Source: Chloroflexota bacterium (lineage in GTDB: Bacteria; Chloroflexota; Limnocylindria; Limnocylindrales; CSP1-4). From it: DNA of 64,000 nucleotides. Within the stretch, counting starts at the first letter, position 1. Each line of letters starts with the position of its first letter. Positions 41,629-59,410 of this stretch are shown piece after piece. The position numbers were made by a program, and so were the translations under genes. The notes beneath the pieces are model-generated. The model ran no database searches. It was not told the DNA's origin and saw only the letters and a list, made by a program, of their open reading frames with translations. The stretch is from NCBI GenBank assembly GCA_021783095.1, contig JAJXUG010000009.1, forward strand, positions 28,025 to 92,024, in the 5' to 3' direction.

Positions 41629-42705
41629 ATGTTCCGCTGCCGGGACCTGGCGGGCGAGCTGGCGGCCGAGGCTGGCCTGAGCGTCAGCGAGGTCGGCGAG
41701 GTGGTCTGGTCCGCCATGCTGCACGACATCGGCAAGCTCTACATCCCCGACCGCGTCCTGCTCAAGCCCGGCGTCCTCGACGAGGAGGAGTGGCGCCTGA
41801 TGCGGATGCACCCGATCCGCGGCGCCGAGCTCCTGGAGCACGGCCAGAGCCTCGCGGCCGCGCGGAACATCGCTCGCTGGCACCACGAGAACCTCGACGG
41901 CTCGGGCTATCCGGACGGCCTCCGCGGCAGCGCGATCCCGCTCGAGGCGCGCATCGTCCGCATGGTCGACGCGTGGGACGCCATGACCAACGATCGGCCC
42001 TACCGGGCTGCGATGTCGGCCGAGCGCGCGCTCGAGGAGCTGCGTCGGTACTCGGGCAGCGCGTTCGACCCCGAGCTCGTCGAGTTGTTCACGCGCCTGG
42101 CGCTCGATTGCCTCTGCAGTTGCCGAGGCGATCGACCTCGACTGCCCCAAGTCCTGGCCGATGCCACCCGGATACTGGCCGATCGCGGCGGGTCTGGGAA
42201 GTTGTCGTGGCTGCCGCCGCCGGTGGCGAGGCGCCGCGCACGAGCGCCGCGCGGTCACCGCTTGGGGCAGAAGCGGTGTGGTTCGGCGATCGCTGAGCGC
42301 GGAAATGACGTCGGCCAACTATTGGGTCAGCGAATCCGACATCGGCCAACTATTGGGGCAGAAGACCCTGGCCGATGCGAGCATTCGAGGCGTCGAGGAG
42401 GGAGCGCCGGCCATCTGCCCCAAGTCCTGGCCGATGCGCGGGTGGCGGCATGGGCCGTGCCGCTGGCGTGGATGGCGACGACTCCGTCACGTGCCTACGC
42501 CGCCTCGCCGCACCGAGCGCCCCCCCGAGGTGCCAGCGGGCGGGACGCGCAGGCCCGCGCCGTCACCAGAGCGCGGCTGATGCGCCCTAGCCGCGGACCT
42601 CACGAAGACGATGTTCAGGGGGTCGGCTCTCGCGGGGGATTCTCCGCGAGGAACTGCTCGATCGTTCGGGAGTCGAAGCCGTCCCAGACCATGAAGAAGA
42701 CCTGA
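41629..42705 (+). pseudogene. HD-GYP phosphodiesterase domain gene, apparently N-terminally truncated with a degenerate 3' tail
   Basis: ORF 41629..42705. HD-GYP motifs HDIGK, HHENLDGSGYP and DAWDAMTNDRPYR lie within about 41626-42100. The first conserved His is the codon just before the ATG. The frame opens only at 41512 and has no ATG/GTG/TTG upstream. The last roughly 190 codons are Arg-rich, repeat-containing, and overlap the convergent gene. Confidence 0.55.
42142..42437. repeat. Cluster of short direct and palindromic repeats at the core/island junction
   Basis: 23-nt direct repeat CTGCCCCAAGTCCTGGCCGATGC at 42142-42164 and 42415-42437. 16-nt TCGGCCAACTATTGGG (palindromic core CCAA-N3-TTGG) at 42311-42326 and 42342-42357. 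TTGGGGCAGAAG at 42262-42273 and 42353-42364. Confidence 0.8.
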
Positions 42706-44102
42706 TGCGCCGTCCGGGAGAGGAGTCGGAGTGCATCGGCGAGGTCCTGGTCAGGTAGCGGCGCGACAGCCCGGCGGACCTCGGGATCCTGGATCACCCG
42801 CTCGATCGCGGGCTCCGTGCGGTGCGCGTAGAACTGGCCGAAGCTGGGGTAGGCGTTCCTCGGCCGGTCCGTCTCGGCAAGTGTGGCGAGGTCCTGGAGG
42901 GCGTCGAACTGGCAGAGGCTGTCGAGCACGGCGCCGTCGACCTCTGCGCGCTCGTCAGGCCGCAGGCAGTCGGTGGCGAGTGCCAGCTGCTCAGCGGCCT
43001 TGAGGACCGAGACCTCGACCTGGCGGCCACCGCTCTCCCGCTGCAGAAGCATGCCTCGGGCCGCATAGACGAGGGCGTGGCGGAGCCAGGTCCGGCCGAG
43101 CTGGGCGAACCGCTCCCGGTCGCCGGGCTCGAGGGCCAGGCGCCGGACCATGGACCAGCGGCGCTGCCGCACGGCGAGGCCGCCGACGGCAAACACCCGC
43201 AGAGCGACCTCGAGCCAGATCCGATCGGCCGCGATCCCCGCTGTCCCGGGACGGGCGAACTGTTCGTGGCCGACCTCGTAGGCGTCGCTGAGCGCGGCGA
43301 CGGATCCGATGAGCAGCCAGTCGAGGTCGAGGAGGATGGCGAGTGACAGCAGGCACCCCACCCTGTCGAGGACCCCGCGCAGGCCCTCGAGGTCGTCCTG
43401 CTCGACGCGTTCGACCACGACCGGCTTGATCCGAGCGAGCAGCAGGCGGATCGGGACGGTGTCGCCGACGCGGACGAGCTGCGCCGCCCGCGCCCCGAAG
43501 GGGCCGAGCTCCTCCTCGAAGCCAATCCCCGGCCGCTCGGCCGCGGGCGCCGCCGCCGCTGTCAGGTCCGCCGCCCACTCGCGCCGCACCCGCGTCCGCT
43601 CCTGCTCGACGAACCGGTCACGGAGTCGGGCCATGTCCGGGTGGGTCACGCGAACGCTGGCAGTGCCGCGCCGGACGAGCACGTCAGCCTCTCGGAAGAC
43701 CGTCGTCTGGCGGCCGTCCTCCTCGTACTGGCCGTCTGCGGACAGGATGGCGAAGCCGTTCGGGTGCGGGCCGATCCACATGAGGGCGAGGGCCACGCCG
43801 TCGATCTCGTGCACGGCGCAGCGGAGGTCGACGTCGGGGAGGTAGCGGCGGACTCGCCCGCGGATCGTCGCCTCGTCGAAGTCTCGGCGGGCCGTCGGCC
43901 CGAGTCCGACGGGCGTCCCGTCGTCGGCGGCGCCGACCACGATGTAGCCCCCCTCGGCCGACATCGCCGCCATGTCCTTGACCAGCTCGACGAGGTCCCG
44001 CCGGACGGCGAGGTCGGCCGCGGACTTGAAGTCGAGGCCCTCGAACTCGTGCTGCTCGGCGAGCAGCTCGCGGAGCTGGTCCGCGTCGAGACGTGTCGTC
44101 AT
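42615..44102 (-). CDS. AlbA_2 (Schlafen-like) DNA-binding domain protein with uncharacterised C-terminal domain
   Basis: ORF 42615..44102. N-terminal EQHEFEGLDFKSAADL...AEGGYIVVGAADDGTPVGL matches the AlbA_2 pattern. About 300 aa of unassigned helical C-terminus. Confidence 0.55.
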   Translation of the reverse strand: MTTRLDADQLRELLAEQHEFEGLDFKSAADLAVRRDLVELVKDMAAMSAEGGYIVVGAADDGTPVGLGPTARRDFDEATIRGRVRRYLPDVDLRCAVHEIDGVALALMWIGPHPNGFAILSADGQYEEDGRQTTVFREADVLVRRGTASVRVTHPDMARLRDRFVEQERTRVRREWAADLTAAAAPAAERPGIGFEEELGPFGARAAQLVRVGDTVPIRLLLARIKPVVVERVEQDDLEGLRGVLDRVGCLLSLAILLDLDWLLIGSVAALSDAYEVGHEQFARPGTAGIAADRIWLEVALRVFAVGGLAVRQRRWSMVRRLALEPGDRERFAQLGRTWLRHALVYAARGMLLQRESGGRQVEVSVLKAAEQLALATDCLRPDERAEVDGAVLDSLCQFDALQDLATLAETDRPRNAYPSFGQFYAHRTEPAIERVIQDPEVRRAVAPLPDQDLADALRLLSRTAHQVFFMVWDGFDSRTIEQFLAENPPREPTP

Positions 44103-44220: not shown

Positions 44221-44706
44221 TTGTCCACGATGGCGGCGGCGAGCTCGGGCACCTCCACTCGCAGCGTCGAGGGCCGCATCATGATCGCCGTCGCCGCGCA
44301 CCACGGCGAGTCAAGCTTCGGGGGGCTCACGAGGGCAACGGGCGTCCGGCTCGGCGAGATGGGTGAGGGCGGCTGGGCGGGGTGCCATCAAGGCAGCGGG
44401 CCGTGTCCCGAGGCGAACGCGGACGCTGACCCCGCTCACCCCTTCTACGGGCAGGAGATGGTGTTCACCGGCGCCCTCGCGTCGATGACACGGCGCAGGC
44501 GTGGGATCGGGTCGCCGAGGTCGGCGGGCGCCCTGCGCCGGGCGTCACGAAGCACACCAACATCCTCGTGATCGGGTATCAGGACGCCAGCAAGCTGAGG
44601 CCGGGCGAGGAGCGCCAAGGCCCGCAAGGCGCGGGACCTCCGGCTGGCCGCGCAGCAGATCGAGATCCTGCCGGAGCTCGACTTCGTGCGCCTCCTCATG
44701 GCCTGA
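44221..44706 (+). pseudogene. Frameshifted remnant of an exonuclease-BRCT type gene (C-terminal BRCT domain)
   Basis: HPFYGQEMVFTGALASMTR (frame 1, from 44437) continues as AQAWDRVAEVGGRPAPGVTKHTNILVIGYQDASKLRPGEE (frame 0, from 44493). It then reads AKARKARDLRLAAQQIEILPELDFVRLLMA-stop (frame 1, from 44614, TGA 44704-44706). Two frame changes are needed to read one BRCT-like domain, and no intact upstream catalytic domain is present. Confidence 0.55.
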
Positions 44707-44741
44707 GAGCGCGGCGGAAGGTCTGGGGCACGGCGGCCCCT

Positions 44742-45311
44742 TCAGCACAATCGACGCGTTTGCCGACGCGATGCGCACCTTGAGGTGCCGCTGCCGCCAG
44801 GGCGTCCCGGCCATCCGTGCCTGAGGGCGCGGTCCGCGCGAACCAGCCCGAGGCACGCGGCCCACACCGCCGCCGCGTAGGCGATCTCGAGGCCGGCAAC
44901 CAGCTGGTCCTTCGCGGCGGCGATGAAGAACGCGGCCGACGCGGCCCAGACGAGGACGCCGAAGGCGCGGACGACGGGCGCGAGGTACATGACCGTCGGC
45001 CGCCGCAGGATCGCGAGGCGCCCGCGGAGCCGCCGGTCGACCGCGACGATCGGCGGGCCGAGCGCCGCCACGGCGGCGGCGAACGCGTTGACCGCCAGGG
45101 CCAGCGACGCGGTGAGGTCGGCTGCCGGGCCAGGCTGCACGATGGTGATGGCCAGCATCCACACGCAGCCGACGACGCCGAGCGAGGCAAGCCTGACAGC
45201 CTGGGAGGTCGAGCGCGCTCCGAGGACCCCGGCCGCGAGGTAGAGCGCCAGGGCGACGGGCGGCTCGCGACAGGCGGCGAGGTAGGCGTCGATCGCCGCG
45301 ACGCCCGTCAC
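44742..45311 (-). CDS. Multi-pass (about 5 TM) membrane protein translationally coupled to the E1 gene
   Basis: Last 189 codons of ORF 44742..46742. GTG 45309-45311 overlaps the E1 stop 45308-45310 (GTGA). Hydrophobic segments include VALALYLAAGVLGA, LGVVGCVWMLAITIV, LALAVNAFAAAVAAL, LAPVVRAFGVLVWAASAAFFIAAA and LEIAYAAAVWAACLGLV. Confidence 0.6.
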   Translation of the reverse strand: MTGVAAIDAYLAACREPPVALALYLAAGVLGARSTSQAVRLASLGVVGCVWMLAITIVQPGPAADLTASLALAVNAFAAAVAALGPPIVAVDRRLRGRLAILRRPTVMYLAPVVRAFGVLVWAASAAFFIAAAKDQLVAGLEIAYAAAVWAACLGLVRADRALRHGWPGRPGGSGTSRCASRRQTRRLC

Positions 45312-46687
45312 GTGCCTGCCCTCACGAAGCCGCTGTTCGGCGGGGCCGGCAGGCGGTTGGGGGCTGTCCGGGCGAACGCCGCGTCGGCGAGGGAGATCGA
45401 GACAGCCTCGAGCCTCACGCCGCCGTGGAGGTGCCGGAGCAGGTCGGCGACGCCGAGGGCGCCAGCGACCGCCCCAACGAAGGCGGCGCCCGCCGTGCGG
45501 CCCGCGAGCTCGGCGACCCCGCAGGCCGCGGCGTCCCGCGACATCCCGCGAGCCTCCAGCTCGCGGATCGCGGCGGCGTAGGCGGGCGCTGCCGCGAGGT
45601 CGCCAGGGCTGCGAGCCGGCGCCTCGGGGAAGGCGTCTGCCGCCCTCCGCGATCCGGGGAAGCTCTGGAGCACGATGTCGAGGTACCGGGCGCCGCGCCC
45701 AAGGCCCGCGTCGACAGCGTACGCGAGCCCCGCGGCCTCGAGGCTGCGCCTCGGCTCCGGCTTGTCGAACCCGGCCAGGGCCATCGCGGGCTCCGTGGCG
45801 TCGCCCGCGAAGCCCGCGCCAAAGCGCCGCTCGGAGATGAACGTCGCCAGCCCCCTCGACTCGAGCTCCCGCGCCACGGCGCGGGCCTTGCTCCGGCCGA
45901 CGTCGCCGGCCGCGAGCAGGAGCCCGGTGTCGAGGTTCGCGGTGACGGCGCGCTCCGGGTCCACCAGCCCGATGCAGACGCCCGGGTCGTGCCCGTAGGG
46001 GAGCGAGCCGATGGCCCACGCGTTGGCCTGCCCGAGGTGGCCGACGCCGAGCAGCCACAGCGCGGACGGCAGGTAGGCGAGCGACGCGCCCCTCCCGTCG
46101 GCGTCGCGCCAGTCGAGGTCGGGCCGCCAGAGCGAGACGCCGGCATCGCGGCGCGCGGCGAGGGCGATGCCCTTGGCGGCCTGGAACGCCTCCGAGACCG
46201 CGATCGCGCCGGCGACAACGCCAGCCAGCGGCATCCCGTCGCCCTCTGGCAGGCGGCGACCGGCATCGGTCGTCACCCCGCCGGCCCATCCGTCCCAGGT
46301 TGCGTGGATCGCTGTCGCGGGCGCGGCTGCGGCGCCACCGCCGATCACGACCACCACCGGGACCTCGTCCCCGTCTCCCGAGGCGCGAGCGGCGCCGGCC
46401 CGGGCCAGGGCGTCGTCGAGGCGCTCGCCCCGGCCCCAGCCGTGGCGCAGGATGGGATTCCCGGCCGCAGCGACGGACACGCCGCCCTTGAAGGCGCGGA
46501 CTCCGCACCGGAGCGCGGTGAGGAAGGCCGCGGTGGCCGTGGCGGAATCCTCCCAGCCGCTGCCCATCGCGATCCCGAGCCGCCGTCGGCGGGCGAGGGC
46601 GGCAGACTCGGCGATCGTGGCGGCCGTCCCGTCGTCGAGGTCGATCTTGTCGGTGCGGCCGAGCTCGTCGGGATCGATCACGGCCAC
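45308..46687 (-). CDS. E1-like (ThiF/MoeB/UBA-family) activating enzyme, BilD-like
   Basis: In-frame GTG at 46685-46687, or GTG at 46679-46681 overlapping the JAB stop, in ORF 45308..47122. Rossmann-type LLGVGHLGQANAWAI. Sits in an operon with Ubl, E2 and JAB genes. Confidence 0.7.
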   Translation of the reverse strand: MAVIDPDELGRTDKIDLDDGTAATIAESAALARRRRLGIAMGSGWEDSATATAAFLTALRCGVRAFKGGVSVAAAGNPILRHGWGRGERLDDALARAGAARASGDGDEVPVVVVIGGGAAAAPATAIHATWDGWAGGVTTDAGRRLPEGDGMPLAGVVAGAIAVSEAFQAAKGIALAARRDAGVSLWRPDLDWRDADGRGASLAYLPSALWLLGVGHLGQANAWAIGSLPYGHDPGVCIGLVDPERAVTANLDTGLLLAAGDVGRSKARAVARELESRGLATFISERRFGAGFAGDATEPAMALAGFDKPEPRRSLEAAGLAYAVDAGLGRGARYLDIVLQSFPGSRRAADAFPEAPARSPGDLAAAPAYAAAIRELEARGMSRDAAACGVAELAGRTAGAAFVGAVAGALGVADLLRHLHGGVRLEAVSISLADAAFARTAPNRLPAPPNSGFVRAGT

Positions 46688-47181
46688 CTCCCCACGTAGA
46701 GGCGGCGCTCTGCGTCGCGCCCCGTCCAGCTCGTCCACGCACCGCCGCCGTCGTGGCGGTGGACGCCGACCTCGCGCGGCCGAACCGTGCGGGCGGCGAG
46801 GTCGGGCACGATGAGCGCGACGTGCCCGCGCCTGCCCACCATCGACGACCCGCGGTCGATGCTGCTCTGGTCCACCCAGCTCGCCGGGTGCGTGTGGACG
46901 TCGCCGATGACGGCGAGGGCCTCGCGCCGGCACAGGTCCCACAGCGCGGAGAAGGCGGGCGCGTGCAGGGCCACGCCGCCGTCGAGCGCGTCCGGGTCGA
47001 GGTCGTCGAAGTAGACGATCCGCGTCACGCGCCACTCGGCTGTCGATGGGGCCAGGAGGAAGGCGCCCGACTCCCGCTCGCCTCCGGCCCGCCGGCCGAG
47101 CTCGCCGACCAGGCCCGCCCACGACGACCGGCCGAAGCGCAGGAGCGCTCCCCGTCCGAAGAGCCGCTCAGACGCCCGCAT
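46678..47181 (-). CDS. JAB/MPN (JAMM) metallopeptidase, deubiquitinase-like (BilC-like)
   Basis: ORF 46678..47181. Intact JAMM motif: E in GERESGAFLL, then HTHPASWVDQSSID (H-x-H-x7-S-x2-D). Confidence 0.85.
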   Translation of the reverse strand: MRASERLFGRGALLRFGRSSWAGLVGELGRRAGGERESGAFLLAPSTAEWRVTRIVYFDDLDPDALDGGVALHAPAFSALWDLCRREALAVIGDVHTHPASWVDQSSIDRGSSMVGRRGHVALIVPDLAARTVRPREVGVHRHDGGGAWTSWTGRDAERRLYVGRWP

Positions 47182-47632
47182 ACTCGTCGCTCATGAGCAT
47201 CTCGGAGAGCAGCCGCAGGCACAGGGTGATGTCCTTCGTCGGATCCCACGCCCAGGACCGGTGCTCGTCGCGCCAGTTGGGGTGGCCGGCCAGCGCCACG
47301 CGGTCGCAGGGCACGTAGAGCGCCGACCCCGACTCCCAGTCTGTGCGGAAGGCGCGCTCGGCACGGCCGCCCTTGGGGCGTGCCGCCTGCCCCGCCTGCG
47401 TGTTGGCGGCGACGTCCCACGGCGTCGCCGTCGGCGCCTGCGCCGGGTAGCCGGACAGCTCGAACCGCAGGGTGAAGGCGTCGGGCGCGCCGACGCGGGC
47501 GGCCGCCCGGACCGCGATCCAGGCGTGCGGCCAGGAGATCCCGAGCAGCCACCAGAGCCCCTCCTCGACGCCTGCGCGGTACGCGGCGCCGAGGAGGTGG
47601 TCGCGGAAGGTTCGCTCGTCGGGCGCGAGCAC
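47168..47632 (-). CDS. Prokaryotic E2-like (UBC-fold) conjugating enzyme, BilB-like
   Basis: ORF 47168..47632. UBC-like FTLRFELSGYPAQAPTATPWD followed by a candidate catalytic Cys in ALYVPCDR. Overlaps the JAB start by 14 nt. Confidence 0.7.
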   Translation of the reverse strand: MLAPDERTFRDHLLGAAYRAGVEEGLWWLLGISWPHAWIAVRAAARVGAPDAFTLRFELSGYPAQAPTATPWDVAANTQAGQAARPKGGRAERAFRTDWESGSALYVPCDRVALAGHPNWRDEHRSWAWDPTKDITLCLRLLSEMLMSDEYAGV

Positions 47633-47633
47633 G

Positions 47634-48092
47634 CTACCCCTCGAACTTGTGCTGCGGCACGAGGTTCAGGCAGACCGAGCACGCCGCGTCGGCCAGGCCG
47701 CCGACGTGCTCGGACAGGTCCGGCTCGTCCTGGGTGCCGCAGACTTGGAAGGTGTAGGTCGCCCGCTCGGCGTCGGACAGGCCGAAGCCATTGGGGCCCG
47801 TCGCCCAGGCGAGGATCGCCCGCAGCGCCTTGGCCGGCGGCTCGTCGGTCGTCTTGTCCACCCCGTTGAACGACACGGTCACGGCGACCCGGCGGCAGGT
47901 CCCCGCGAACAGGCGGGCACCGGCGGCCACGCCTTGGCTGTCGAGCGTGGCGCTCGCGTCGAGGGGCTCGTCGCGCCCGTCCGCGAACAGCTCGCCGCTC
48001 GCCCCGGCGCGGCCCATCAGCTCGGCCGGCGTGTCGCTAGGCTCGACCGACACAACGGACCGCGACCGGCCCTGGCCCACGAACAAGTCCAT
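47634..48092 (-). CDS. Ubiquitin-like protein, tandem beta-grasp (multiubiquitin/BilA-like), ending in Gly
   Basis: ORF 47634..48092, 152 aa. Two roughly 70-aa halves. C-terminus ...LVPQHKFEG-stop exposes a terminal glycine. Strong SD (GGAGGAGG) upstream. 1-nt gap to the E2 gene. Confidence 0.65.
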   Translation of the reverse strand: MDLFVGQGRSRSVVSVEPSDTPAELMGRAGASGELFADGRDEPLDASATLDSQGVAAGARLFAGTCRRVAVTVSFNGVDKTTDEPPAKALRAILAWATGPNGFGLSDAERATYTFQVCGTQDEPDLSEHVGGLADAACSVCLNLVPQHKFEG

Positions 48093-48191
48093 CGCGACCT
48101 CCTCCGGCCTCGGCCGGGGTGTACCATCGTTGCTGTACCGGACGTGTGACGGAGATCCGGTGCCGGTACTAGCGGTAGGAGTGTACCAGAA
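48093..48191. promoter_or_regulatory. Divergent promoter/operator region between the Ubl operon and the XRE-ImmA pair
   Basis: 99-bp spacer. GTGTACC at 48119-48125 and 48181-48187. Inverted repeat GTACCGG (48135-48141) / CCGGTAC (48163-48169). SD AGGAG (48177-48181) lies 10 nt before the XRE GTG. Confidence 0.5.
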
Positions 48192-48650
48192 GTGGATCGC
48201 CGGTCAATGCATGATTCTGACCTGCGCGCCCTCGGCGGCCGTGCCGCCGCCCTCCGCAAGAAGCGCGGCCTCAGCCTCCGCGACGCCGCCGCGGAGATCG
48301 GGATCTCGTTCAACACGCTCGCCCGCGTGGAGAAGGGCCACCTGCCCGACTTGCAGAACCTGCAGCGGATCCAGGCATGGCTCGGCGACACCCCGGCCCG
48401 ACCCGCGCCAGCGCCCGGGGTCTCGACGCCCGAGGCCATCGCGAGCCACCTGCAGACCGACCCCATGCTGCCGCCCGAGGCCGCTGCGCGCATCGCCGGC
48501 ATCGTCCGCGACCTCTACGAGGCCCTCGCGAAGACGCCGGCCGCCACTCCGGTCCACCTGCGCGCAGCGCGGACGTTCTCGCCCGACGCCTCACGCGAGC
48601 TCGCCGACATCCTGGCGCGGATGCACGAGCGACTGATGAGCGGCGCCTGA
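48192..48650 (+). CDS. XRE-family helix-turn-helix regulator (CapH-like)
   Basis: ORF 48192..48650. HTH LRKKRGLSLRDAAAEIGISFNTLARVEKG. GTG start with a good SD. Confidence 0.8.
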   Translation: MDRRSMHDSDLRALGGRAAALRKKRGLSLRDAAAEIGISFNTLARVEKGHLPDLQNLQRIQAWLGDTPARPAPAPGVSTPEAIASHLQTDPMLPPEAAARIAGIVRDLYEALAKTPAATPVHLRAARTFSPDASRELADILARMHERLMSGA

Positions 48651-49225
48651 TGCTGCCGCGCGGCTTCAAGGCCGAGGCCGAGCGCAGGGCGGTCACGCTC
48701 CGCGCTGAGATGGGTCTGCGCCCCACCGACCCAGTCGAGGCGGCCGCCGTGGCTGCCCATCTGCGGATCGGCTTCCGGCGGGCGGACGAGCTGATCCCGA
48801 TCCAGGCCCTCGAGGCGCTGGAGCGGACCCAGCCCGGCTGCTTCTCGGCGTGCACCCTCCCCGGACCGACCGGTCCCGTCGTGATCACGAACCCGTTGAA
48901 CTCGCTGGGCCGACAGCAGAGCGACGCCTTCCACGAGATCAGCCACCTCGTGCTCCGGCACCAGATGCGGACCCTCGAGCGTGTGGGAGACCTCGTGTTC
49001 TTCACCTGCGACTCTGACGACGAGGAGCAGGCGAACTCGCTCGCCGCCACCCTCCTCCTCCCGAGGCCCGCCCTGGTCGCGGCTCATGCCCGGGGGATGG
49101 GCGTCGCGGCGATCGCCGAGACCTACGGCGTCAGCGAGCAGCTCGCCCGTTGGCGGCTGAACGCCTCCGGCGTCGCGATCCAGATCCGACGGCGAGAGCC
49201 CGCCGCCCGAGGCGCTACCGCATAG
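48650..49225 (+). CDS. ImmA/IrrE-family zinc metallopeptidase (CapP-like)
   Basis: ATG 48650-48652 shares one base with the XRE stop (TGATG), in frame with ORF 48377..49225. HExxH motif in AFHEISHLVL. Confidence 0.8.
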   Translation: MLPRGFKAEAERRAVTLRAEMGLRPTDPVEAAAVAAHLRIGFRRADELIPIQALEALERTQPGCFSACTLPGPTGPVVITNPLNSLGRQQSDAFHEISHLVLRHQMRTLERVGDLVFFTCDSDDEEQANSLAATLLLPRPALVAAHARGMGVAAIAETYGVSEQLARWRLNASGVAIQIRRREPAARGATA

Positions 49226-49336: not shown

Positions 49337-50614
49337 TTGCCGACGCGATCCTCAGACCGACGACGCATGACCGACGAACCGTCGCTCCCGCAGGCTGACG
49401 AAGAGAGCCCAGAAGCTGTACTGCTGCGCGCGCTGTCACTCCTGTTGCGCGGGGCCGGTTCCGACCCGCTCGCGCCAGCGGCCGCGCCCGTGCCGGAGCC
49501 ACTCCTCTCGGTCGCGGACGCGGCCGGCTACCTCAACGTCTCGACCACGACCGTCCGCAACCTCGCGATCGGCGGCAAGCTGCGGTCGGCCCGCATCGGT
49601 GACCGCATCCGCTTCCGTCGCGCCTGGCTCGACGCGTGGATCGACGAGGGTGGCGGCGAGGTTCCCGCCCCGCCGCCACCCGAGCCACGGGCTGCGCCAG
49701 CACGCGCGCAAGCTGCCCGGCCACCGAGGCCCGCACGCCCCAAGTCGCCGCCCAAGCCCAAGCCCCCGACCTGCATCCAGAGCGTCAACGGCGTCGAACT
49801 CCGGCTCCTGTCCGACGCTGGTCGAGGAACCGTCTACACGTGGCACGCCGGCGATACGCGGCCACTCTGCGGCGCCGATGGACGCTGGAGCCGTTCGCTG
49901 AGGCGCTGCCCCGTCGCCACGTTCTGTGCGAGGTGCCTCACCGCATTGGCGGCCATGCCAGGCACCGACCTCTCCCTGTTCGGGATCGGGCACGTGTACA
50001 TGCTCCGCATGACAACCCGCGGCGCGACGCCGACCCCGATCCGCGCCGGATACCACGAGGGTGACGGTGCCAAGACGCTCTGCGGGAAACGGGAGGGGCC
50101 TTGGGCCCTTACGGAACGGAAGCCGCAGACTCGCGAGTGCTTCGATTGCGATCACCGCGTCCGTTGGCGCAACCGCGACCTGGACAGCTCGTTCCTGGTG
50201 CCACGCCCGATGACGCCCCTGTGCCTCCTCGTCGACGCGGGACCCCTGGATCCGAGGGTCGTCGACCTGGCGGCCCGACACCCTGGTGCTGTCGAGGTGC
50301 GGCAGGCAGCCGAGCCGCTCCCGGAGGACTTCAGCTGGCAGTGGGCGCGGTGGGACCCCGCCTTTGCCGCGGCCACCCCGGTCGGATCGTTCCAGGCGCC
50401 CGACGCGTCCATCACCGGGCCACGGACGCACTGGACGAAGTGGACGCTGTCCGATCGGAGCGATGTGGGCACGCAGTTCGACGACAAGTTCGCGGACCGG
50501 ATGGAGGATTGGGCGACCACGGTAGAGCGGGCTTACGCCCTGTACGCTCGCTGGCACAGGGAGGTTGCCCCGCGTCGTGCGGGCCGGCAACGTGGAGGTC
50601 CAGGGCGCGCCTGA
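49337..50614 (+). CDS. Excisionase-type HTH (MerR-like) protein with Pro-rich linker and duplicated Cys-rich modules
   Basis: ORF 49337..50614; M11 at 49367 is an alternative start. HTH_17-like LLSVADAAGYLNVSTTTVRNLAIGGKLRSARIGDRIRFRRAWLDAWI. Two related modules: WHAGDTRPLCG...CPVATFCARC and YHEGDGAKTLCG...CFDCDH. Confidence 0.6.
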   Translation: MPTRSSDRRRMTDEPSLPQADEESPEAVLLRALSLLLRGAGSDPLAPAAAPVPEPLLSVADAAGYLNVSTTTVRNLAIGGKLRSARIGDRIRFRRAWLDAWIDEGGGEVPAPPPPEPRAAPARAQAARPPRPARPKSPPKPKPPTCIQSVNGVELRLLSDAGRGTVYTWHAGDTRPLCGADGRWSRSLRRCPVATFCARCLTALAAMPGTDLSLFGIGHVYMLRMTTRGATPTPIRAGYHEGDGAKTLCGKREGPWALTERKPQTRECFDCDHRVRWRNRDLDSSFLVPRPMTPLCLLVDAGPLDPRVVDLAARHPGAVEVRQAAEPLPEDFSWQWARWDPAFAAATPVGSFQAPDASITGPRTHWTKWTLSDRSDVGTQFDDKFADRMEDWATTVERAYALYARWHREVAPRRAGRQRGGPGRA

Positions 50615-50790: not shown

Positions 50791-52542
50791 ATGGCCGACG
50801 AGACAAGCGCCCTAAGCGTCGTGGTGGACCGACTGGCAGGTGCTTGCGCCGCACGCCAGTGGCACGAGGTCTCTGAGGCGCTGCGGGAGGAACCGCTGTC
50901 CGAACAGGACAGGAATGCCGTCAGGTGGCATGTCGTCGCATTCGACTATGAGCTCGTCCAGCCGGCCGGGCGGCCACATGGGCCTCGCGAGCCAGCACTC
51001 CTCCCCAAAGCGCTCTTCGAGGGCGGGGGATCCTATCCCCCGCCCGTCGAGGAGCTGCCCCAAGAAGCGGTCGTGGCGTGGCGAGAAGCCGCCACGGTGG
51101 CCCCAACGCCGCTCATGGCCGCGAGGTACCGAGACCTCCTGTGGCACCGTCGGGAGGGGCGGGCGGTGGAACATGCTCTTGCCGCAATTGGCGCCTACCT
51201 CGACCTTGCCAACGATCCCGACGCGCATGACGGGATCATGGTCGTGTCGGCGTCGTCACGGGCGCTCGAACTATCGCGAATGATCAACGCAGTCAACCTG
51301 CAGCGGCTGTCGGTCGCGGCTGCCGTCAGCGGGGCGACACGCGAACTCGACCTCGAGCGGCCGCGCCCGGGTATCGCGATCCGATTGTTGGCGCTACTCC
51401 ACCAACTGCCCGTCGTCGAGAGGCCACCCGAGCTCAAGCCGCTCCTCCTGCGATGCGAGGACGCCTTCGGCACAGACGCATACGTGTGCGAGGACGTGGC
51501 TGAGATGCTCATTGGCCATTCCTCTGACGATGCAGAACGGGCTGCAACAATCGCACGACAGATCGCGAGGTGGGAGTCGCGCCACGAGCGTGGGCTTGGG
51601 CGCCTGACTGATCTCCGGGATGCGGCGATCTTCGCCGAGTCATACGGTGCTGGAGATGAGGCCCGGCGACTGCGCCGCCTCGCCGAGCGCATTCCCCCGG
51701 CGGACCTGGAGCTACAGACGATCACCGGGGAATTCGAGATCCCCACGGCGCAGGTCGATGAGCTCATAGCGATCCTGGTCGGAGATGACGACTATGTCTC
51801 CGGTTTGCTGCGTGTCGGTTCTTATGGTCCTCCGAGCGGCGACCCTGAACGGACCGCCGAGGTCGTCAGGGACATCGCCGAAGCGACGCCATTCCTTCAC
51901 CTCGGGCAGCGAACGGTTCTCGGTCCAGAGGGGTCCATCCTGCGCGTCACGCAGTCCGTCGACGAGGCCATCGAAGTCGAGATTCCGAGACATGAGGCCA
52001 CCTCGATCTCCCTAACGAGCCACGTCCTCGCGCGAGCGCTGGATGAGCTGGCCGAGCGCTACGGGGTGCCCGAAGTAGCCGCCCTGACATTGGCGCTCAC
52101 ATCCGACTTCGTGCTACAGCCGACCGCTGAAGCTTTCGCACGTGCGATCAGGCACTATCACGCAGCCGAGTTTGACGCAGCCGGCCATCTCACCGCTCCA
52201 CGTATCGAGCGGCCAATTCGTGCGATTGCGCGGGCGCTCGGGATCTCGGTGACGACGCCTCCTGCCGGCGACCGTCCGGGCGGTGTTCGCTCCGTGGGCG
52301 ATCTCCTCCACGACCTTCGAGGCAGCTTGCCCGAGCCTTGGCGCCGCTACTACATGAACTTGCTCGTCGATCCCTTCGGCCTGAATCTGCGTAACTCCAT
52401 CTCCCACAGCCTCATCGACTACGTCGATCGACCAACGTCGGCGATCTTGATCCATGCCGCAGTCCGCCTCACCCTCTTCGGCATCGTCGATCCAGCGGCC
52501 AACGTCGATCCAGCGGCCGACACCGCTCAGGCGCCCGAGTGA
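50791..52542 (+). CDS. Hypothetical 583-aa protein, DUF4209-like C-terminus
   Basis: ORF 50791..52542 with SD GGGGGA upstream. C-terminal LVDPFGLNLRNSISHSL motif (NLRNxxxH) resembles DUF4209-type proteins. By eye, GC content looks lower than in the flanking genes; not computed. Confidence 0.45.
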   Translation: MADETSALSVVVDRLAGACAARQWHEVSEALREEPLSEQDRNAVRWHVVAFDYELVQPAGRPHGPREPALLPKALFEGGGSYPPPVEELPQEAVVAWREAATVAPTPLMAARYRDLLWHRREGRAVEHALAAIGAYLDLANDPDAHDGIMVVSASSRALELSRMINAVNLQRLSVAAAVSGATRELDLERPRPGIAIRLLALLHQLPVVERPPELKPLLLRCEDAFGTDAYVCEDVAEMLIGHSSDDAERAATIARQIARWESRHERGLGRLTDLRDAAIFAESYGAGDEARRLRRLAERIPPADLELQTITGEFEIPTAQVDELIAILVGDDDYVSGLLRVGSYGPPSGDPERTAEVVRDIAEATPFLHLGQRTVLGPEGSILRVTQSVDEAIEVEIPRHEATSISLTSHVLARALDELAERYGVPEVAALTLALTSDFVLQPTAEAFARAIRHYHAAEFDAAGHLTAPRIERPIRAIARALGISVTTPPAGDRPGGVRSVGDLLHDLRGSLPEPWRRYYMNLLVDPFGLNLRNSISHSLIDYVDRPTSAILIHAAVRLTLFGIVDPAANVDPAADTAQAPE

Positions 52543-52742
52543 GGGCATCGCGTCGACAGCGTCTGTCGGAGCGTCACTCTCGCGTGCTCACTGACGCAAG
52601 AGTTTGCTGATCGAGGCGTGACGGCCAAGCTGACACAGCGGAGTGCAGACTGCGCTGCAGACAGACCACTGCGCTCCCCGCTCCATAGAATGGGAGCGCC
52701 CGCGAGAGGCGGTCCGCAAACGTTCGCCGGGGGAGGTCCAGC

Positions 52743-56329
<3,587 letters not shown>

Positions 56330-56333
<4 letters not shown>

Positions 56334-59300
56334 CCTACCGCAAGAAGCTCATCGAGGTCGCACTCCCGCTAGAGAAGATTAACGCGGCGTGCGCGCGGGA
56401 GAAGGCGATTCGCCACGGTCACCCCAGCACCCTGCACCTCTGGTGGGCGCGTCGGCCGCTTGCAGCCGCCCGGGCGGTCATCTTCAGCCAGATGGTGGAC
56501 GACCCGACCGAATACGTGGATGTGCTCAGGGCTGACCCAAAGCTCCATCGGAAGGCCGAGACTGCCCTCAAGGCGAGACAGAAGCTCTGGGAGGAAGCGC
56601 GGTCGCTCGCTGACAAGGCCAGGGGCACGGGACTGCAGGTCCCCGAACCCGGACCTGAGCCCACGCTCGAGGAAACACTCGCGGATCAGGAGCGTCAGCG
56701 GTTGTTCAGGATCATCGAGGACCTCGTGAAGTGGGAAGGCACCACCGACGAGACGGTGCTACGGCGGGCACGCGATGAGATCTGGGCCAGCTGGCGGCGG
56801 ACATGCCTCGAAGCGGTCGACGACCCGCGAGCGAAGGAGTTGTTCGACCGGCATGAGCTGCCGGCCTTTCACGACCCGTTTGCCGGCGGCGGCGCCCTGA
56901 CGCTAGAGGCACAGAGGCTCGGTCTCGAGAGTTACGCGTCTGATCTCAACCCGGTGGCGGTCCTGATCAACAAGGCGATGATCGAGATCCCGCCCGGGTT
57001 CTCGGGGCAACCGCCCGTGAACGGCGAGTGGCGCACCGATCGGACGCTCCTCGCACGCGAGTTACGCGGCGCACAGGGCCTCGCCGAGGACGTCCGCTAT
57101 TACGGCAAGTGGATGCGCGACGAGGCCGAGCGCCGGATCGGCCACCTTTATCCGAGTGTCGAGGTCACGTCAGGGATGGCGCGGGAGCGGCAGGATCTGC
57201 GCCCATATGTCGGCAGGTCGCTCACCGTTATCGCATGGCTGTGGGCGCGGACCGTGAGGAGTCCGAACCCTGCCTTTTCGCATGTGGAAGTACCCCTCGC
57301 ATCCACATTCCTTCTCGCCGGAATGGCCGGCAGAGAGGCCTATGTCGAGCCGGTTATCCAGGACGGCGGGTACCGCTTCACCGTGAAGACGGGCAACCGG
57401 AGTGAGGCGGTCGCGGCGAAGAATGGCACCAAGCTGTCGCGTGGGGCGAACTTCTCTTGCCTGATGTCGGGTTCCCCGATCGAAGGCGACTACATCAAGG
57501 CCGAAGGCAGGGCCGGGCGCATGGGCGCCCGCCTGATGGCCATCGTCGCCGAGGGTGACCGGGGTCGCGTCTACCTCGCGCCCACGCCTGAGATGGAGGC
57601 CATCGCGCTCACAGCGCGGCCGACTTGGAAGCCGGACACGCAATTGCCGGCCGACCCGCGTTCCCATTGGACACCTCCATATGGGCTGACAACCTACGGT
57701 GACTTGTTCACGAATCGCCAGCTCGTCGCGCTGACGACGTTCGCTGACCTGGTCCTGGAGGCACGCGAGCAGGTGCAGCACGACGCTCTCGCTGCCGGCC
57801 TCTCCAGCGATCCGAAGCCGCTCCGTGACGGAGGGCGAGGCGCGCCGGCCTATGCCGACGCGGTAGGTGTCTATCTCGGCCTCGCCATGAGCCGCTTTAC
57901 TGACCGCAACAACTCGTTGTGCTCCTGGGACAGTGGCCCAGCGGGGACGAAATCATCGACCGGCGGCTCGGCCCGAACCGCGTCGATCCGAAACCTCTTC
58001 TCTCGCCAGGCAGTCCCCATGGCCTGGGACTTCGCTGAAGCCAACCCTTTCAGTGACTCTGGAGGCAGCTATGCGAGTGCTGCGGAATGGATCGTCCCCG
58101 CGATCCGCGGCCTGCCCGGCCTCGTCGCGGGTCATGCTGAGACGGCCGACGCCGCGACTCAGAGTTTGACCCAAGGAAGGGTCGTGTCCACGGATCCGCC
58201 CTACTACGACAACATCGGGTACGCCGATCTCTCTGACTTCTTCTACGTCTGGCTGCGGAGATCGCTCCGCCGGATCTTCCCGGACCTGTTCGCCACACTC
58301 GCCGTGCCGAAGGCCGAGGAACTCGTGGCGACCCCATATCGACATGGCAGCAAGGAAGCGGCGGAGACGTTCTTCCTCGACGGGATGACCCAGGCGATGC
58401 ACCGACTCGCCGAGCAGTCGCACCCGGCCTTCCCCGTCACGATCTACTACGCGTTCAAGCAGGCAGAGAGCGACGGCGCGGACGGCACGACGAACACCGG
58501 CTGGGACACCTTCCTGGCGGCCGTGATCCGGGCCGGCTTCGCGGTCACAGGCACATGGCCGATGCGAACCGAACTCGGCAACCGGATGATCGGATCCGGG
58601 ACCAACGCACTGGCGTCGAGCATTGTCATCGTCTGCCGCCCGCAGCGTGCTGACGCCGCGACCGCGACTCGACGGGAGTACGCAGCGGCGTTGAGGGCCG
58701 AGATGCCGGCAGCCGTCGCCGACCTCCAGCGAGGCAGCATCGCCCCTGTGGACCTCTCGCAGGCTGCCGTCGGCCCGGGCATGGCGATCTTTACGAGGTA
58801 CCTCCAGGTCCTCGACGCCCAGGGCAGACCCCTGTCGGTGAGCGAGGCGATCGCCATGATCAATGCGACCCTTGACGAAGTGCTCGCCGAGCAGGAGGGC
58901 GACTTCGACCCCGACACGCGCTGGGCGCTCGCCTGGTTCGAGCACGTCGGCTTCGAGGAGGGCGAGTTCGGCATCGCGGAGACGCTGTCCAAGGCCAAGG
59001 TCACGAGTGTCGCCGGGATGGTCGAGGCCGGGATCGTCGCCGCAGGGCGTGGCAAGGTTCGCCTTCTCCGACCTGACGAGCTTCCCGCCGACTGGAACCC
59101 TGCGACGGACAGCCGCCTCACGGCCTGGGAGGTGGTGCACCACTTGGTCCGAGCAAGCGGCGGTGCCAACGGGAGCGAGTCCGCTGCCGCTGAGCTCGTC
59201 GCCAAGCTTGGTGCGCGAGCCGAAGTCGCCCGCGAGTTGGCATACCGCCTGTTCGCTCTGAGCGACCGCAAGAAGCGGTACGCCGACGCTCAGGCGTACA

Positions 59301-59407
59301 ACGGTCTGATCCAGAGCTGGCCCGAGATCACCCGCCTCGCCCACGAGGGCGGCGAGACAGTGGTCTCTCGGCCGGGACTCTTCGACGCACTGGAGGACGG
59401 GGGGTAG
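56330..59407 (+). CDS. DUF1156-domain DNA methyltransferase (DPPY type)
   Basis: ORF 56330..59407. ATGA overlap with the helicase. DUF1156-like N-terminus (IRHGHPSTLHLWWARRP). SAM motif DPFAGGGALTLEA. Catalytic STDPPYYDNIGYADLSDFFYVWLRR. Confidence 0.85.
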
Positions 59408-59410
59408 CGC

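What the first reader, a model, noticed from the sequence alone, without database searches (positions are those of the whole stretch)
44742..48092. Complete Ubl-E2-JAB-E1 operon (Bil-type bacterial ubiquitination module) with a fifth, coupled membrane gene
Five minus-strand genes are packed with almost no spacing.
- **Ubl:** a 152-aa tandem beta-grasp-like protein that ends exactly in Gly (KFEG-stop).
- **E2:** follows after a 1-nt gap. It has UBC-like FTLRFELSGYPAQAP and a Cys in YVPCD.
- **JAB:** overlaps the E2 by 14 nt and carries an intact JAMM motif (E...HTHPx7SxxD).
- **E1:** ThiF/E1-like (GVGHLGQ), with a start at or overlapping the JAB stop.
- **TM gene:** a 189-aa, roughly 5-TM protein joined to the E1 by a GTGA overlap.

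The order Ubl, E2, DUB, E1 matches the multiubiquitin-E2-JAB-E1 operons predicted by comparative genomics and studied as BilABCD antiphage systems. There is no CD-NTase, so this is not CBASS.
Basis: partly seen in the sequence, partly recalled or inferred. Interest (0 to 1): 0.85.

Follow-up and report, generated by a model that had tools for sequence, protein, structure and literature searches.

The report
Bil ubiquitin-like antiphage operon, Chloroflexota
This is an intact copy of the already described bacterial "Bil" antiphage system, which tags phage proteins with a ubiquitin-like protein; the only unusual parts are a rare small membrane gene fused onto its end and a repressor/protease switch next to it.

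Summary
Five minus-strand genes are tightly coupled, with a 1-nt gap, a 14-nt overlap and two GTGA overlaps.

The first four genes are a canonical Type I BilABCD system:
- Each matches its PADLOC model over the full length (BilA 6e-31, BilB 4e-54, BilC 6e-53, BilD 8e-126).
- The residues shown by mutagenesis to be essential in Collimonas Bil are present: BilA C-terminal Gly152, BilB Cys109, BilC JAMM Asp109, BilD Cys387 and the G-loop.

The two operons share a conserved 99-bp control region carrying three GGTACA repeats.

The fifth gene is a real protein of four to five transmembrane helices:
- It has coding-type GC3.
- A 47%-identical homologue sits in the same overlapping position in the sister operon.
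- It is very rare, with five relatives among 1.84 billion representative proteins.
- It is absent from more than 80 other Bil operons, and its distant relatives lie outside Bil loci.

Its functional link to Bil is therefore unproven.

The host is a Chloroflexota MAG, and the locus sits in a defence island (Hma-like, Ppl-like, PDC-S39-like).

Verdict: a new member of a known kind, of modest interest.

The parts
47634..48092 (-). [quoted passage not shown]
   Evidence: PADLOC BilA 5.8e-31, residues 11-152 on model positions 16-162 of 162. Precomputed Pfam hit BilA_UBL_2. A family profile hits linear di-ubiquitin at 4e-8 with two stretches. The terminal Gly aligns in 72/74 homologues, and 51/73 end exactly on it.
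47168..47632 (-). bilB: E2-type conjugating enzyme, 154 aa, putative catalytic Cys109 in YVPCDR
   Evidence: PADLOC BilB 4.4e-54. Pfam PF24702 (DUF7665/BilB-like) 4.5e-43. Cys109 is present in 61/79 homologues; Y106, P108, D110, H117 and W120 are near-invariant. It corresponds by position to Collimonas C113, whose mutation abolishes defence.
46678..47181 (-). bilC: JAB/JAMM deubiquitinase-type metallopeptidase, 167 aa
   Evidence: PADLOC BilC 6.3e-53. Pfam Prok-JAB 4.9e-4, below its cut-off. A family profile hits the solved E. aridi BilC (8tyx_B) at 1.8e-12. E37, H96, H98, S106 and D109 are conserved in 79-82 of 82 homologues.
45308..46681 (-). bilD: E1 activating enzyme, 457 aa, with nucleotide loop G212xGxxG217 and catalytic Cys387
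   Evidence: PADLOC BilD 8e-126 full length. Precomputed Pfam hit BilD_N. A family profile hits ThiF at 6.7e-4 over positions 200-319. G212, G214, G217, D241, K265, R267 and C387 are invariant in 83/83. Collimonas G219A and C385A abolish defence.
44742..45311 (-). Fifth gene: 189-aa protein with 4-5 TM helices and conserved AVDR..R and LVRADR motifs, translationally coupled to bilD; role unknown
   Evidence: GC3 0.91. GTGA overlap with bilD. A 47%-identical homologue (E 3e-40) sits in the same ATGA-overlapping position in the sister operon L001. Only 5 relatives in 1.84e9 representatives. No hit in Pfam, PADLOC, NCBIfam or PHROGs. The AF2 model is all-helical with pLDDT 64.
48093..48191 (.). 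Divergent control region between bilA and the HTH gene: three GGTACA repeats and a sigma-70-like promoter pointing into bil
   Evidence: 78% column identity with the equivalent region of L001 and L002, higher than the nucleotide identity of the coding genes to L001 (60-71%). GGTACA at 48120, 48134 and 48182, against 20 copies in the whole 64 kb. TTGACC-16-TACACT on the minus strand at 48207..48180.
48192..48650 (+). CapH-like XRE-family HTH repressor, 152 aa
   Evidence: Pfam HTH_3 5.6e-10. PADLOC capH 5e-5. Same divergent position in L001, L002, L092 and the P0010 contig; in L093 the caller lists only the M78 gene, and a local profile finds HTH similarity beside it.
48650..49225 (+). CapP/ImmA/IrrE-like M78 zinc peptidase, 191 aa, HEISH motif, start overlapping the HTH stop by 1 nt
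   Evidence: Pfam Peptidase_M78 1.8e-13. PADLOC capP 4.9e-8, model positions 4-142 of 242 only. PHROG metallo-protease 1e-12.

Best explanation
The locus is an intact Type I BilABCD antiphage ubiquitin-like conjugation system in a Chloroflexota genome.

**Mechanism, inferred from family membership and from published work on the Collimonas system.**
1. BilD (E1) adenylates the free C-terminal Gly152 of BilA and takes it onto Cys387 as a thioester.
2. BilA passes to Cys109 of BilB (E2).
3. BilA is then ligated to lysines of phage structural proteins. In the studied case the target is the central tail fibre, which yields defective or non-infective virions.
4. BilC (JAMM) removes or edits conjugates. 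Because BilA already ends in Gly, no C-terminal pre-processing is needed.

**Regulation, inferred.** Expression is probably held off by the divergently encoded XRE repressor, which would bind the GGTACA repeats. It would be released when the adjacent M78 peptidase cleaves the repressor, following the CapH/CapP paradigm.

**Fifth gene.** It is a genuine small membrane protein, co-translated with bilD. It was acquired once in the common ancestor of this operon and its sister. It is most likely a lineage-specific add-on that the core reaction does not need. Whether it acts with Bil is open.
For: **Shown here**
- Full-length PADLOC hits to all four Bil models and Pfam Bil family names.
- The gene order bilA-B-C-D holds wherever several of the four genes were detected across the 84 related loci.
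- Catalytic residues are present and conserved.
- The BilA profile hits di-ubiquitin at 4e-8.
- The BilC profile hits solved BilC at 1.8e-12.
- The BilD profile hits ThiF at 6.7e-4.
- The HTH and M78 genes match capH and capP models and sit divergently on a conserved intergenic region with a locally enriched repeat.
- The same regulator pair is present in L001, L002, L092 and the P0010 contig (BilD at least 50% identical); in L093 the M78 gene was called and the HTH was seen only with a local profile.
- The fifth gene has coding composition, a conserved start overlap and a conserved N-terminus MTGV in L001. The flanking genes of the two loci differ. The two BilD sequences are sisters in an NJ tree.
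- The locus lies in a defence island.

**From the literature**
- G163, E1 C385 and G219, E2 C113 and DUB D115 are essential for defence, and the conjugation target is the central tail fibre.
- CapH/CapP pairs sit divergently upstream of immune operons, including 15% of Type II Bil operons.
Against: - No function was tested. Conjugation, the target and defence are all inferred by homology.
- The UBC fold of BilB could not be shown here. Its profile hits nothing in the PDB. hhalign against canonical E2s gives only 9.9% probability. The single-sequence AF2 model is poor, with pLDDT 50, and Foldseek on it gives noise.
- The M78 protein is 191 aa and covers only the first 142 of 242 positions of the capP model. 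It probably lacks the C-terminal GAF sensor domain of true CapP.
- The fifth gene is absent from the next-closest operons L002 and L092 and from 80 others.
- Its dN/dS against L001 is higher than that of the enzymes, 0.58 versus about 0.3.
- In the only other operon with the fifth gene (L001), bilA and bilB carry frameshifts. That copy may be decaying or badly assembled.
Confidence: 0.88

Rival explanations
1. The fifth gene is a true fifth Bil component in this subclade. It would be a membrane partner that localises the conjugation machinery at the envelope, or a membrane effector or target controlled by BilA conjugation.
For: - The start codon overlaps the bilD stop in both genomes that have it, GTGA here and ATGA in L001.
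- It travels with the M78-HTH-bilABCD block while the flanking genes differ.
- The ORF is kept intact at 47% identity with dN/dS below 1.
- Unrelated small multi-TM ORFs also abut bilD in L093, L038/L053 and L040.
Against: - It is present in only 2 lineages of more than 85 Bil operons, and absent from the sister pair L002/L092.
- Its distant relatives P0118-P0120 sit in non-Bil contexts.
- Four-gene Bil operons defend on their own in E. coli.
- Multi-TM ORFs abut bilD in about 6% of loci. By my own rough estimate this is near what chance adjacency would give; it was not tested.
- Those other TM ORFs show no homology to the fifth gene.
Confidence: 0.28
2. The fifth gene is an unrelated passenger. 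It would be a small membrane protein of unknown, non-Bil function that was captured at the 3' end of the operon and is co-transcribed by accident of position.
For: - Rarity and patchy distribution.
- Family members occur outside Bil loci.
- Selection is relaxed relative to the enzymes.
- The gene content downstream of bilD is highly variable across loci.
Against: The overlapping start codon and the N-terminus are both conserved across operons whose BilD proteins are only 62% identical. This argues for more than accidental adjacency.
Confidence: 0.6
3. The fifth ORF is a spurious open frame of the kind high-GC DNA produces.
For: High-GC DNA yields many long false ORFs, as the lists show. There is no family hit in four libraries. 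The last ~25 codons lack GC3 bias.
Against: GC3 is 0.91 in frame over about 160 codons. A homologue at E 3e-40 has the same length and position. Three further relatives lie in unrelated genomes and share the motifs AVDR and LVRADR.
Confidence: 0.04
4. The operon belongs to another E1/Ubl system: Type II Bil (CEHH/6C), CBASS Cap2/Cap3, or a ThiF/MoeB sulfur-carrier pathway.
For: All of these share an E1-like adenylation domain, a beta-grasp protein and, for some, a JAB peptidase. The BilD profile's only PDB hit is ThiF.
Against: - The E2 and JAB genes exclude a sulfur-carrier pathway.
- No CD-NTase and no E1-E2 fusion is present.
- The BilD and BilB profiles do not detect the solved Type II E. 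aridi proteins.
- BilA has two Ubl domains and no residues after the terminal Gly, the Type I pattern.
Confidence: 0.02

Closest known systems
Type I BilABCD (bacterial ISG15-like) antiphage system, e.g. Collimonas sp. OK412 (Millman et al. 2022; Hör et al. 2023/2024)
   Same: Four genes in the order Ubl-E2-JAB-E1. BilA has two ubiquitin-like domains and ends in Gly. The E1 Cys and G-loop, the E2 Cys and the JAMM Asp all sit at the equivalent positions. All four PADLOC models match full length.
   Different: The host is Chloroflexota rather than the Alpha- and Betaproteobacteria first described. The closest BilD in the databases is only 62% identical. There is a divergent HTH + M78 regulator pair and an extra coupled membrane gene.
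Type II BilABCD (CEHH/6C) operons, e.g. Ensifer aridi TW10 (Chambers et al. 2023/2024; PDB 8TYX/8TYY)
   Same: Same gene order and the same chemistry. The BilC profile matches the solved DUB at 1.8e-12. 15% of these operons carry divergent CapH/CapP.
   Different: The E1 and E2 are not detectable by sequence profile. Type II Ubls often carry up to 9 residues after the Gly and need BilC pre-processing; here BilA ends on the Gly.
CapH/CapP (and DdrO/IrrE, ImmR/ImmA) repressor-protease switches
   Same: An XRE HTH gene followed by an M78 HExxH peptidase gene, upstream of and divergent from an immune operon with a shared control region.
   Different: The peptidase is short (191 aa) and matches only the N-terminal 142 of 242 capP model positions. 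The GAF sensor domain is probably missing, which makes it more ImmA-like. The inducing signal is unknown.
Type II CBASS Cap2/Cap3
   Same: E1, E2 and JAB chemistry used in antiphage defence.
   Different: Here there is no CD-NTase, no E1-E2 fusion and no cyclic-nucleotide effector, and a dedicated Ubl is present.

Membership tests
Type I BilABCD | Four co-directional genes in the order bilA (Ubl), bilB (E2), bilC (JAB), bilD (E1) | tested here: met
   Coordinates and junctions. Each gene matches its own PADLOC model full length. The same order is seen in the related loci where several of the genes were detected.
Type I BilABCD | BilA with two fused ubiquitin-like domains and a conserved C-terminal glycine | tested here: met
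   The family profile hits linear di-ubiquitin at 4e-8 with two stretches, and ISG15 weakly. The protein ends ...KFEG. The Gly column is 72/74.
Type I BilABCD | BilB: E2 (UBC-like) fold with a catalytic cysteine | tested here: inconclusive
   Cys109 is present and aligns with the majority Cys, 61/79. Family membership is strong. The UBC fold itself was not demonstrated: no PDB profile hit, hhalign 9.9%, AF2 pLDDT 50 and uninformative Foldseek.
Type I BilABCD | BilC: JAMM motif E...HxH-x7-S-xx-D | tested here: met
   E37, H96, H98, S106 and D109 are conserved in 79-82 of 82. The profile hits solved BilC at 1.8e-12.
Type I BilABCD | BilD: E1 with an adenylation GxGxxG loop and a catalytic cysteine | tested here: met
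   G212, G214, G217 and C387 are invariant in 83/83. ThiF similarity covers the adenylation domain. The precomputed Pfam hit is BilD_N.
Type I BilABCD | Ubl conjugation to phage proteins and protection from phage | not testable with these tools
   Requires expression, mass spectrometry and plaque assays.
Type II BilABCD (CEHH/6C) | Proteins cluster with E. aridi-type E1 and CEHH E2; the Ubl is commonly followed by a short tail after the Gly | tested here: not met
   The BilD and BilB profiles do not detect the solved E. aridi chains. BilA ends on the Gly.
CBASS type II | A CD-NTase plus a Cap2 E1-E2 fusion and Cap3 | tested here: not met
   No CD-NTase or Cap2 hit among the five operon proteins or the ten neighbours scanned with PADLOC.
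CapH/CapP regulator module | An XRE HTH repressor and an M78 HExxH peptidase encoded together, upstream of and divergent from the regulated immune operon | tested here: met
   HTH_3 5.6e-10 and capH 5e-5. Peptidase_M78 1.8e-13 and capP 4.9e-8. HEISH motif. Divergent arrangement on a conserved 99-bp region.
CapH/CapP regulator module | CapP three-domain architecture with a C-terminal GAF sensor domain | tested here: inconclusive
   The protein is 191 aa and the match ends at capP model position 142 of 242. The architecture is described. No structure was predicted.
CapH/CapP regulator module | ssDNA or DNA-damage-stimulated cleavage of the repressor, and derepression | not testable with these tools
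   Biochemical assay needed.

The most novel reading that the evidence does not exclude
In one Chloroflexota subclade, Bil has recruited a dedicated small membrane protein as a fifth subunit. This would tie ubiquitin-like conjugation to the cell envelope, either as an anchor placing the E1-E2 machinery where phage tails assemble or enter, or as a membrane effector switched by BilA conjugation. A wider reading follows from the related loci. Type I Bil operons may be modular, with variable 3' add-ons and a near-universal M78-peptidase partner in three architectures, none of which appears in the four-gene model.
Probability: 0.25. Interest if true: 0.55.

Novelty: new member of a known kind. Interest (0 to 1): 0.3.

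Why it matters
Bil is one of the few bacterial systems shown to carry out true ubiquitin-like conjugation, and it bears on the origin of eukaryotic ubiquitination.

This copy adds little to the core story:
- It extends the family to Chloroflexota.
- It gives a clean example with native CapH/CapP-like control.

The parts worth a specialist's time are peripheral:
- A very rare membrane protein is translationally coupled to the E1.
- In the comparison set, many Type I Bil operons carry a large M78-UvrD-nuclease gene just upstream.
- About a fifth of BilB 'E2' proteins in that set lack the catalytic cysteine.

If these peripheral patterns hold up, they would change how Bil regulation and chemistry are pictured. 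They are properties of the family, not of this window.

Tried and rejected
- **PDB search with single sequences of BilA-D.** Nothing useful came back; BilC versus 8tyx_B gave only E 0.18. Family profiles worked for BilA, BilC and BilD but not BilB.
- **UBC fold for BilB.** The single-sequence AF2 model was poor and Foldseek on it gave noise.
- **Fifth protein.**
  - There was no hit in Pfam, PADLOC, NCBIfam or PHROGs.
  - The word-indexed search found only the protein itself.
  - AF2 gave pLDDT 64, and Foldseek found no match at E of 0.001 or better.
  - No close relatives appeared in JGI metagenome contigs or GTDB species representatives. A five-sequence alignment was too diverse to make search patterns.
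  - hhalign against the unrelated TM ORFs of L093 and L038 was negative.
- **First BilD locus scan.** Run with a single protein, it found nothing. It succeeded with an alignment.
- **RNA genes.** No tRNA gene or Rfam family is present anywhere in the window, so there is no tRNA-linked island boundary. No intrinsic terminator was found after the fifth gene.
- **Long ORFs after bilD in L032, L057 and L084.** I rejected these as high-GC antisense artefacts, judging from their sequences.
- **M78 census.** My iterated M78 profile drifted by absorbing the giant upstream proteins. I re-did the census with a narrow HMM, direct phmmer and Pfam.

Full report
**1. What is there**

The region lies in 72% GC DNA. 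Reading the minus strand gives five tightly packed genes.

| Gene | Coordinates | Length | Start and junction |
|---|---|---|---|
| bilA | 47634-48092 | 152 aa | ATG; ends KFEG-TAG |
| bilB | 47168-47632 | 154 aa | GTG; 1-nt gap after bilA |
| bilC | 46678-47181 | 167 aa | 14-nt overlap with bilB |
| bilD | 45308-46681 | 457 aa | GTG in a GTGA overlap with the bilC stop, preceded by GGGGAGG |
| fifth gene | 44742-45311 | 189 aa | GTG in a GTGA overlap with the bilD stop |

Third-position GC is 0.91-0.96 in all five frames, the signature of real genes in such DNA.

**2. Identity of the first four genes**

Each matches one PADLOC model over essentially its whole length: BilA 5.8e-31, BilB 4.4e-54, BilC 6.3e-53 and BilD 8e-126.
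- Pfam gives DUF7665 (listed as BilB-like in the precomputed annotations) at 4.5e-43 for BilB.
- The precomputed annotations for the window's own proteins read BilA_UBL_2, BilB-like and BilD_N.
- I collected 80 further Bil loci from one-genome-per-species contigs and several closer relatives from metagenomes. Wherever several of the four genes were detected, they lie in the order bilA-B-C-D.

Residue conservation across these loci is as follows.
- The BilA terminal Gly column is 72/74. Of 73 homologues, 51 end exactly on it, and most of the rest have a short tail after it.
- BilB Cys109 is present in 61/79, with Y106, P108, D110, H117 and W120 near-invariant.
- BilC E37, H96, H98, S106 and D109 are conserved in 79-82 of 82.
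- BilD G212, G214, G217, D241, K265, R267 and C387 are 83/83.

These correspond by position to the residues whose mutation abolishes defence in the Collimonas system: BilA G163, E2 C113, DUB D115, and E1 G219 and C385.

Fold-level checks with family profiles against PDB sequences gave mixed results.
- BilA hits linear di-ubiquitin at 4e-8 with two stretches.
- BilC hits the solved Ensifer aridi BilC at 1.8e-12.
- BilD hits ThiF at 6.7e-4 over the adenylation domain.
- BilB hits nothing. My attempts to show a UBC fold directly failed, so that one feature rests on family membership and the literature.

**3. Type I, not Type II, and not CBASS**

Chambers et al. separate Type II (CEHH/6C) operons from the original Type I.
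- Here BilA has two Ubl domains and ends on the glycine.
- The BilD and BilB profiles do not detect the solved Type II proteins.
- The PADLOC Bil models match the window's proteins end to end.
- No CD-NTase or Cap2-like fusion appears among the five operon proteins or the ten neighbours scanned.

**4.

Two plus-strand genes are transcribed divergently from bilA. Their open frames overlap by 1 nt.
- An XRE HTH protein lies at 48192-48650 (HTH_3 5.6e-10; capH 5e-5).
- An M78 peptidase with an HEISH motif lies at 48650-49225 (Peptidase_M78 1.8e-13; capP 4.9e-8).

The 99-bp spacer has three notable features.
- It is 78% identical column by column to the spacers of L001 and L002. That exceeds the 60-71% nucleotide identity of the coding genes compared with L001.
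- It holds three GGTACA copies, against 20 in the whole 64 kb.
- It contains a sigma-70-like promoter aimed into bil.

This is the arrangement described for CapH/CapP, including for 15% of Type II Bil operons. The same pair is present in L001, L002, L092 and the P0010 contig, all with BilD at least 50% identical to the window's. In L093 the gene caller lists only the M78 gene, and a local profile finds HTH similarity beside it. One caveat applies. The peptidase is short and matches only the first 142 of 242 capP positions, so it probably lacks the GAF sensor domain and is closer to ImmA.

**5. The fifth gene**

It is a real protein.
- It has coding composition over about 160 codons.
- It has four strong and one weaker hydrophobic segments. 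The AF2 model is all-helical but of low confidence, pLDDT 64.
- A homologue in locus L001, a Chloroflexota MAG, is 47% identical over 162 residues at E 3e-40.
- That homologue starts with the same MTGV, in an ATGA overlap with the bilD stop.

BilD of the window and of L001 are sisters in a neighbour-joining tree. The next pair (L092, L002) lacks the gene. The genes flanking the M78-HTH-bilABCD-fifth-gene block differ between the window and L001, so the block moved or was retained as a unit.

The evidence against a general role is stronger.
- An exhaustive phmmer scan of 1.84 billion representatives found only five family members.
- The three distant members lie in non-Bil contexts.
- None of 80 other Bil loci has a homologue.
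- No close relative exists in JGI metagenome contigs or GTDB representatives.
- No library knows the family.
- dN/dS against L001 is 0.58, compared with about 0.3 for BilC and BilD.
- bilA and bilB of L001 carry frameshifts.

A few other operons have unrelated small multi-TM ORFs abutting bilD: L093, L038/L053 and L040. This is about 6% of loci, which by my own rough estimate is near what chance adjacency would give. These ORFs show no homology to the fifth gene.

My reading is that the fifth gene is a genuine, co-translated, lineage-specific add-on. I put a real functional tie to Bil at about 0.25-0.3.

**6. Mechanism**

The gene content, motifs and conservation are shown here. The following steps are inferred by homology to the Collimonas work.
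1. BilD adenylates BilA Gly152 and forms a thioester on Cys387.
2. BilA transfers to BilB Cys109.
3. BilA is ligated to lysines of phage structural proteins, the central tail fibre in the model case. This gives tail-less or non-infective particles.
4. BilC edits or removes conjugates.

No pre-processing is needed because BilA ends on the Gly. The switch is inferred from the CapH/CapP paradigm: the repressor sits on the GGTACA repeats and is cleaved by the M78 peptidase under infection or DNA-damage stress.

**7. Context**

The host is a Chloroflexota bacterium.
- The neighbouring ETF-QO gene is 94% identical to that of an 'uncultured Chloroflexia' MAG.
- The same locus occurs in MAG GCA_027325005.1.

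The operon sits in a defence island that contains:
- a PDC-S39-like DUF7380/DUF4209 protein;
- an HmaA-like SNF2 helicase and an HmaB-like DUF1156 methylase, both at E = 0;
- a Ppl-like PHP-ATPase at 4e-108;
- a Schlafen/AlbA_2 protein.

**8. Verdict**

This is a well-preserved new member of a known, experimentally characterised system. The more intriguing things I saw are family-wide patterns in the comparison loci, listed under 'noticed in passing'.

Noticed in passing
Related loci, e.g. L062:1-3426(+), L020:13-3354(+); 40 of 84 Bil loci: A conserved ORF of mostly 1,000-1,140 aa lies directly upstream of bilA on the same strand, with a gap mostly 100-250 nt. It has an N-terminal Peptidase_M78 domain, a UvrD-type helicase and a C-terminal PD-(D/E)XK nuclease. 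Other loci carry a divergent HTH-M78 fusion, or a split HTH + M78 pair as in the window. An M78 peptidase in one of three architectures therefore accompanies many, perhaps most, Type I Bil operons. This was not mentioned in the Bil papers I read.
   Followed up: partly
Related loci L012, L013, L014-L019, L021, L022, L032, L041, L057, L069, L074, L084, L085, L088 (bilB): In 18 of 79 Bil operons, the BilB residue aligned with the catalytic Cys is W, F, V, M or L, and 9 of these BilB proteins contain no cysteine at all. The BilD Cys stays invariant, and where BilA was recovered it mostly still ends in ...EG. This looks like a Cys-less 'E2' clade, mostly in Actinomycetota and Chloroflexota MAGs. 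The window's own BilB has the Cys.
   Followed up: partly
window 44430-44712 (+): The plus strand between the fifth gene and the AlbA_2 gene carries a sequence that I read as a BRCT-domain-like remnant (…FYGQEMVFTGAL… / …AWDRVAEVGGRPAPGVTKHTNILVIGY… / …IEILPELDFVRLLMA*). The recognition is by eye and no profile search was run. It is split over two reading frames, so it appears to be a frameshifted pseudogene fragment converging on the 3' end of the operon.
   Followed up: no
window 50791-62173 (+): A defence island lies next to Bil. It holds a PDC-S39-like DUF7380/DUF4209 protein (50791-52542), an HmaA-like SNF2 helicase (53079-56333, E = 0), an HmaB-like DUF1156 adenine methylase (56330-59407, E = 0) and a Ppl-like PHP + ATPase protein (59411-62173, 4e-108). 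From about 56 kb onward this stretch has lower GC (0.65-0.67) than the window average.
   Followed up: partly
window 42615-44102 (-); L093:7155-8348: A 495-aa Schlafen/AlbA_2-domain protein follows the operon on the same strand after a 640-bp gap. L093 also has an AlbA_2 protein after its own, unrelated, small TM ORF downstream of bilD. The two AlbA_2 proteins are not otherwise similar, so this may be coincidence.
   Followed up: partly
L001:4598-5520: In the only other operon that carries the fifth gene, bilA and bilB are broken by several frameshifts, and the HTH and M78 genes look truncated. bilC, bilD and the fifth gene are intact. This could be decay of that copy or an indel-prone assembly.
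   Followed up: no
window 49337-50614 (+): A 425-aa protein has an N-terminal HTH_17/excisionase-like domain (PHROG 'excisionase and transcriptional regulator', 8e-11) and an otherwise unknown C-terminal part. It lies between the M78 gene and the PDC-S39-like gene, which hints at a mobile-element origin for the island.
   Followed up: no
window 44742-44830 (-): The last ~25 codons of the fifth gene (…HGWPGRPGGSGTSRCASRRQTRRLC) lose the GC3 bias, 0.67 against more than 0.9 elsewhere. They are not conserved in the L001 homologue, so the native C-terminus may be shorter or recently altered.
   Followed up: no
L043:5228-6883: In one Streptosporangiaceae MAG, the ORF whose start overlaps the bilD stop is an HTH-M78 fusion protein, placed downstream instead of upstream of the operon. 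The HTH-M78 identification rests on reading the sequence and a weak local M78 HMM hit (8.6e-5).
   Followed up: no
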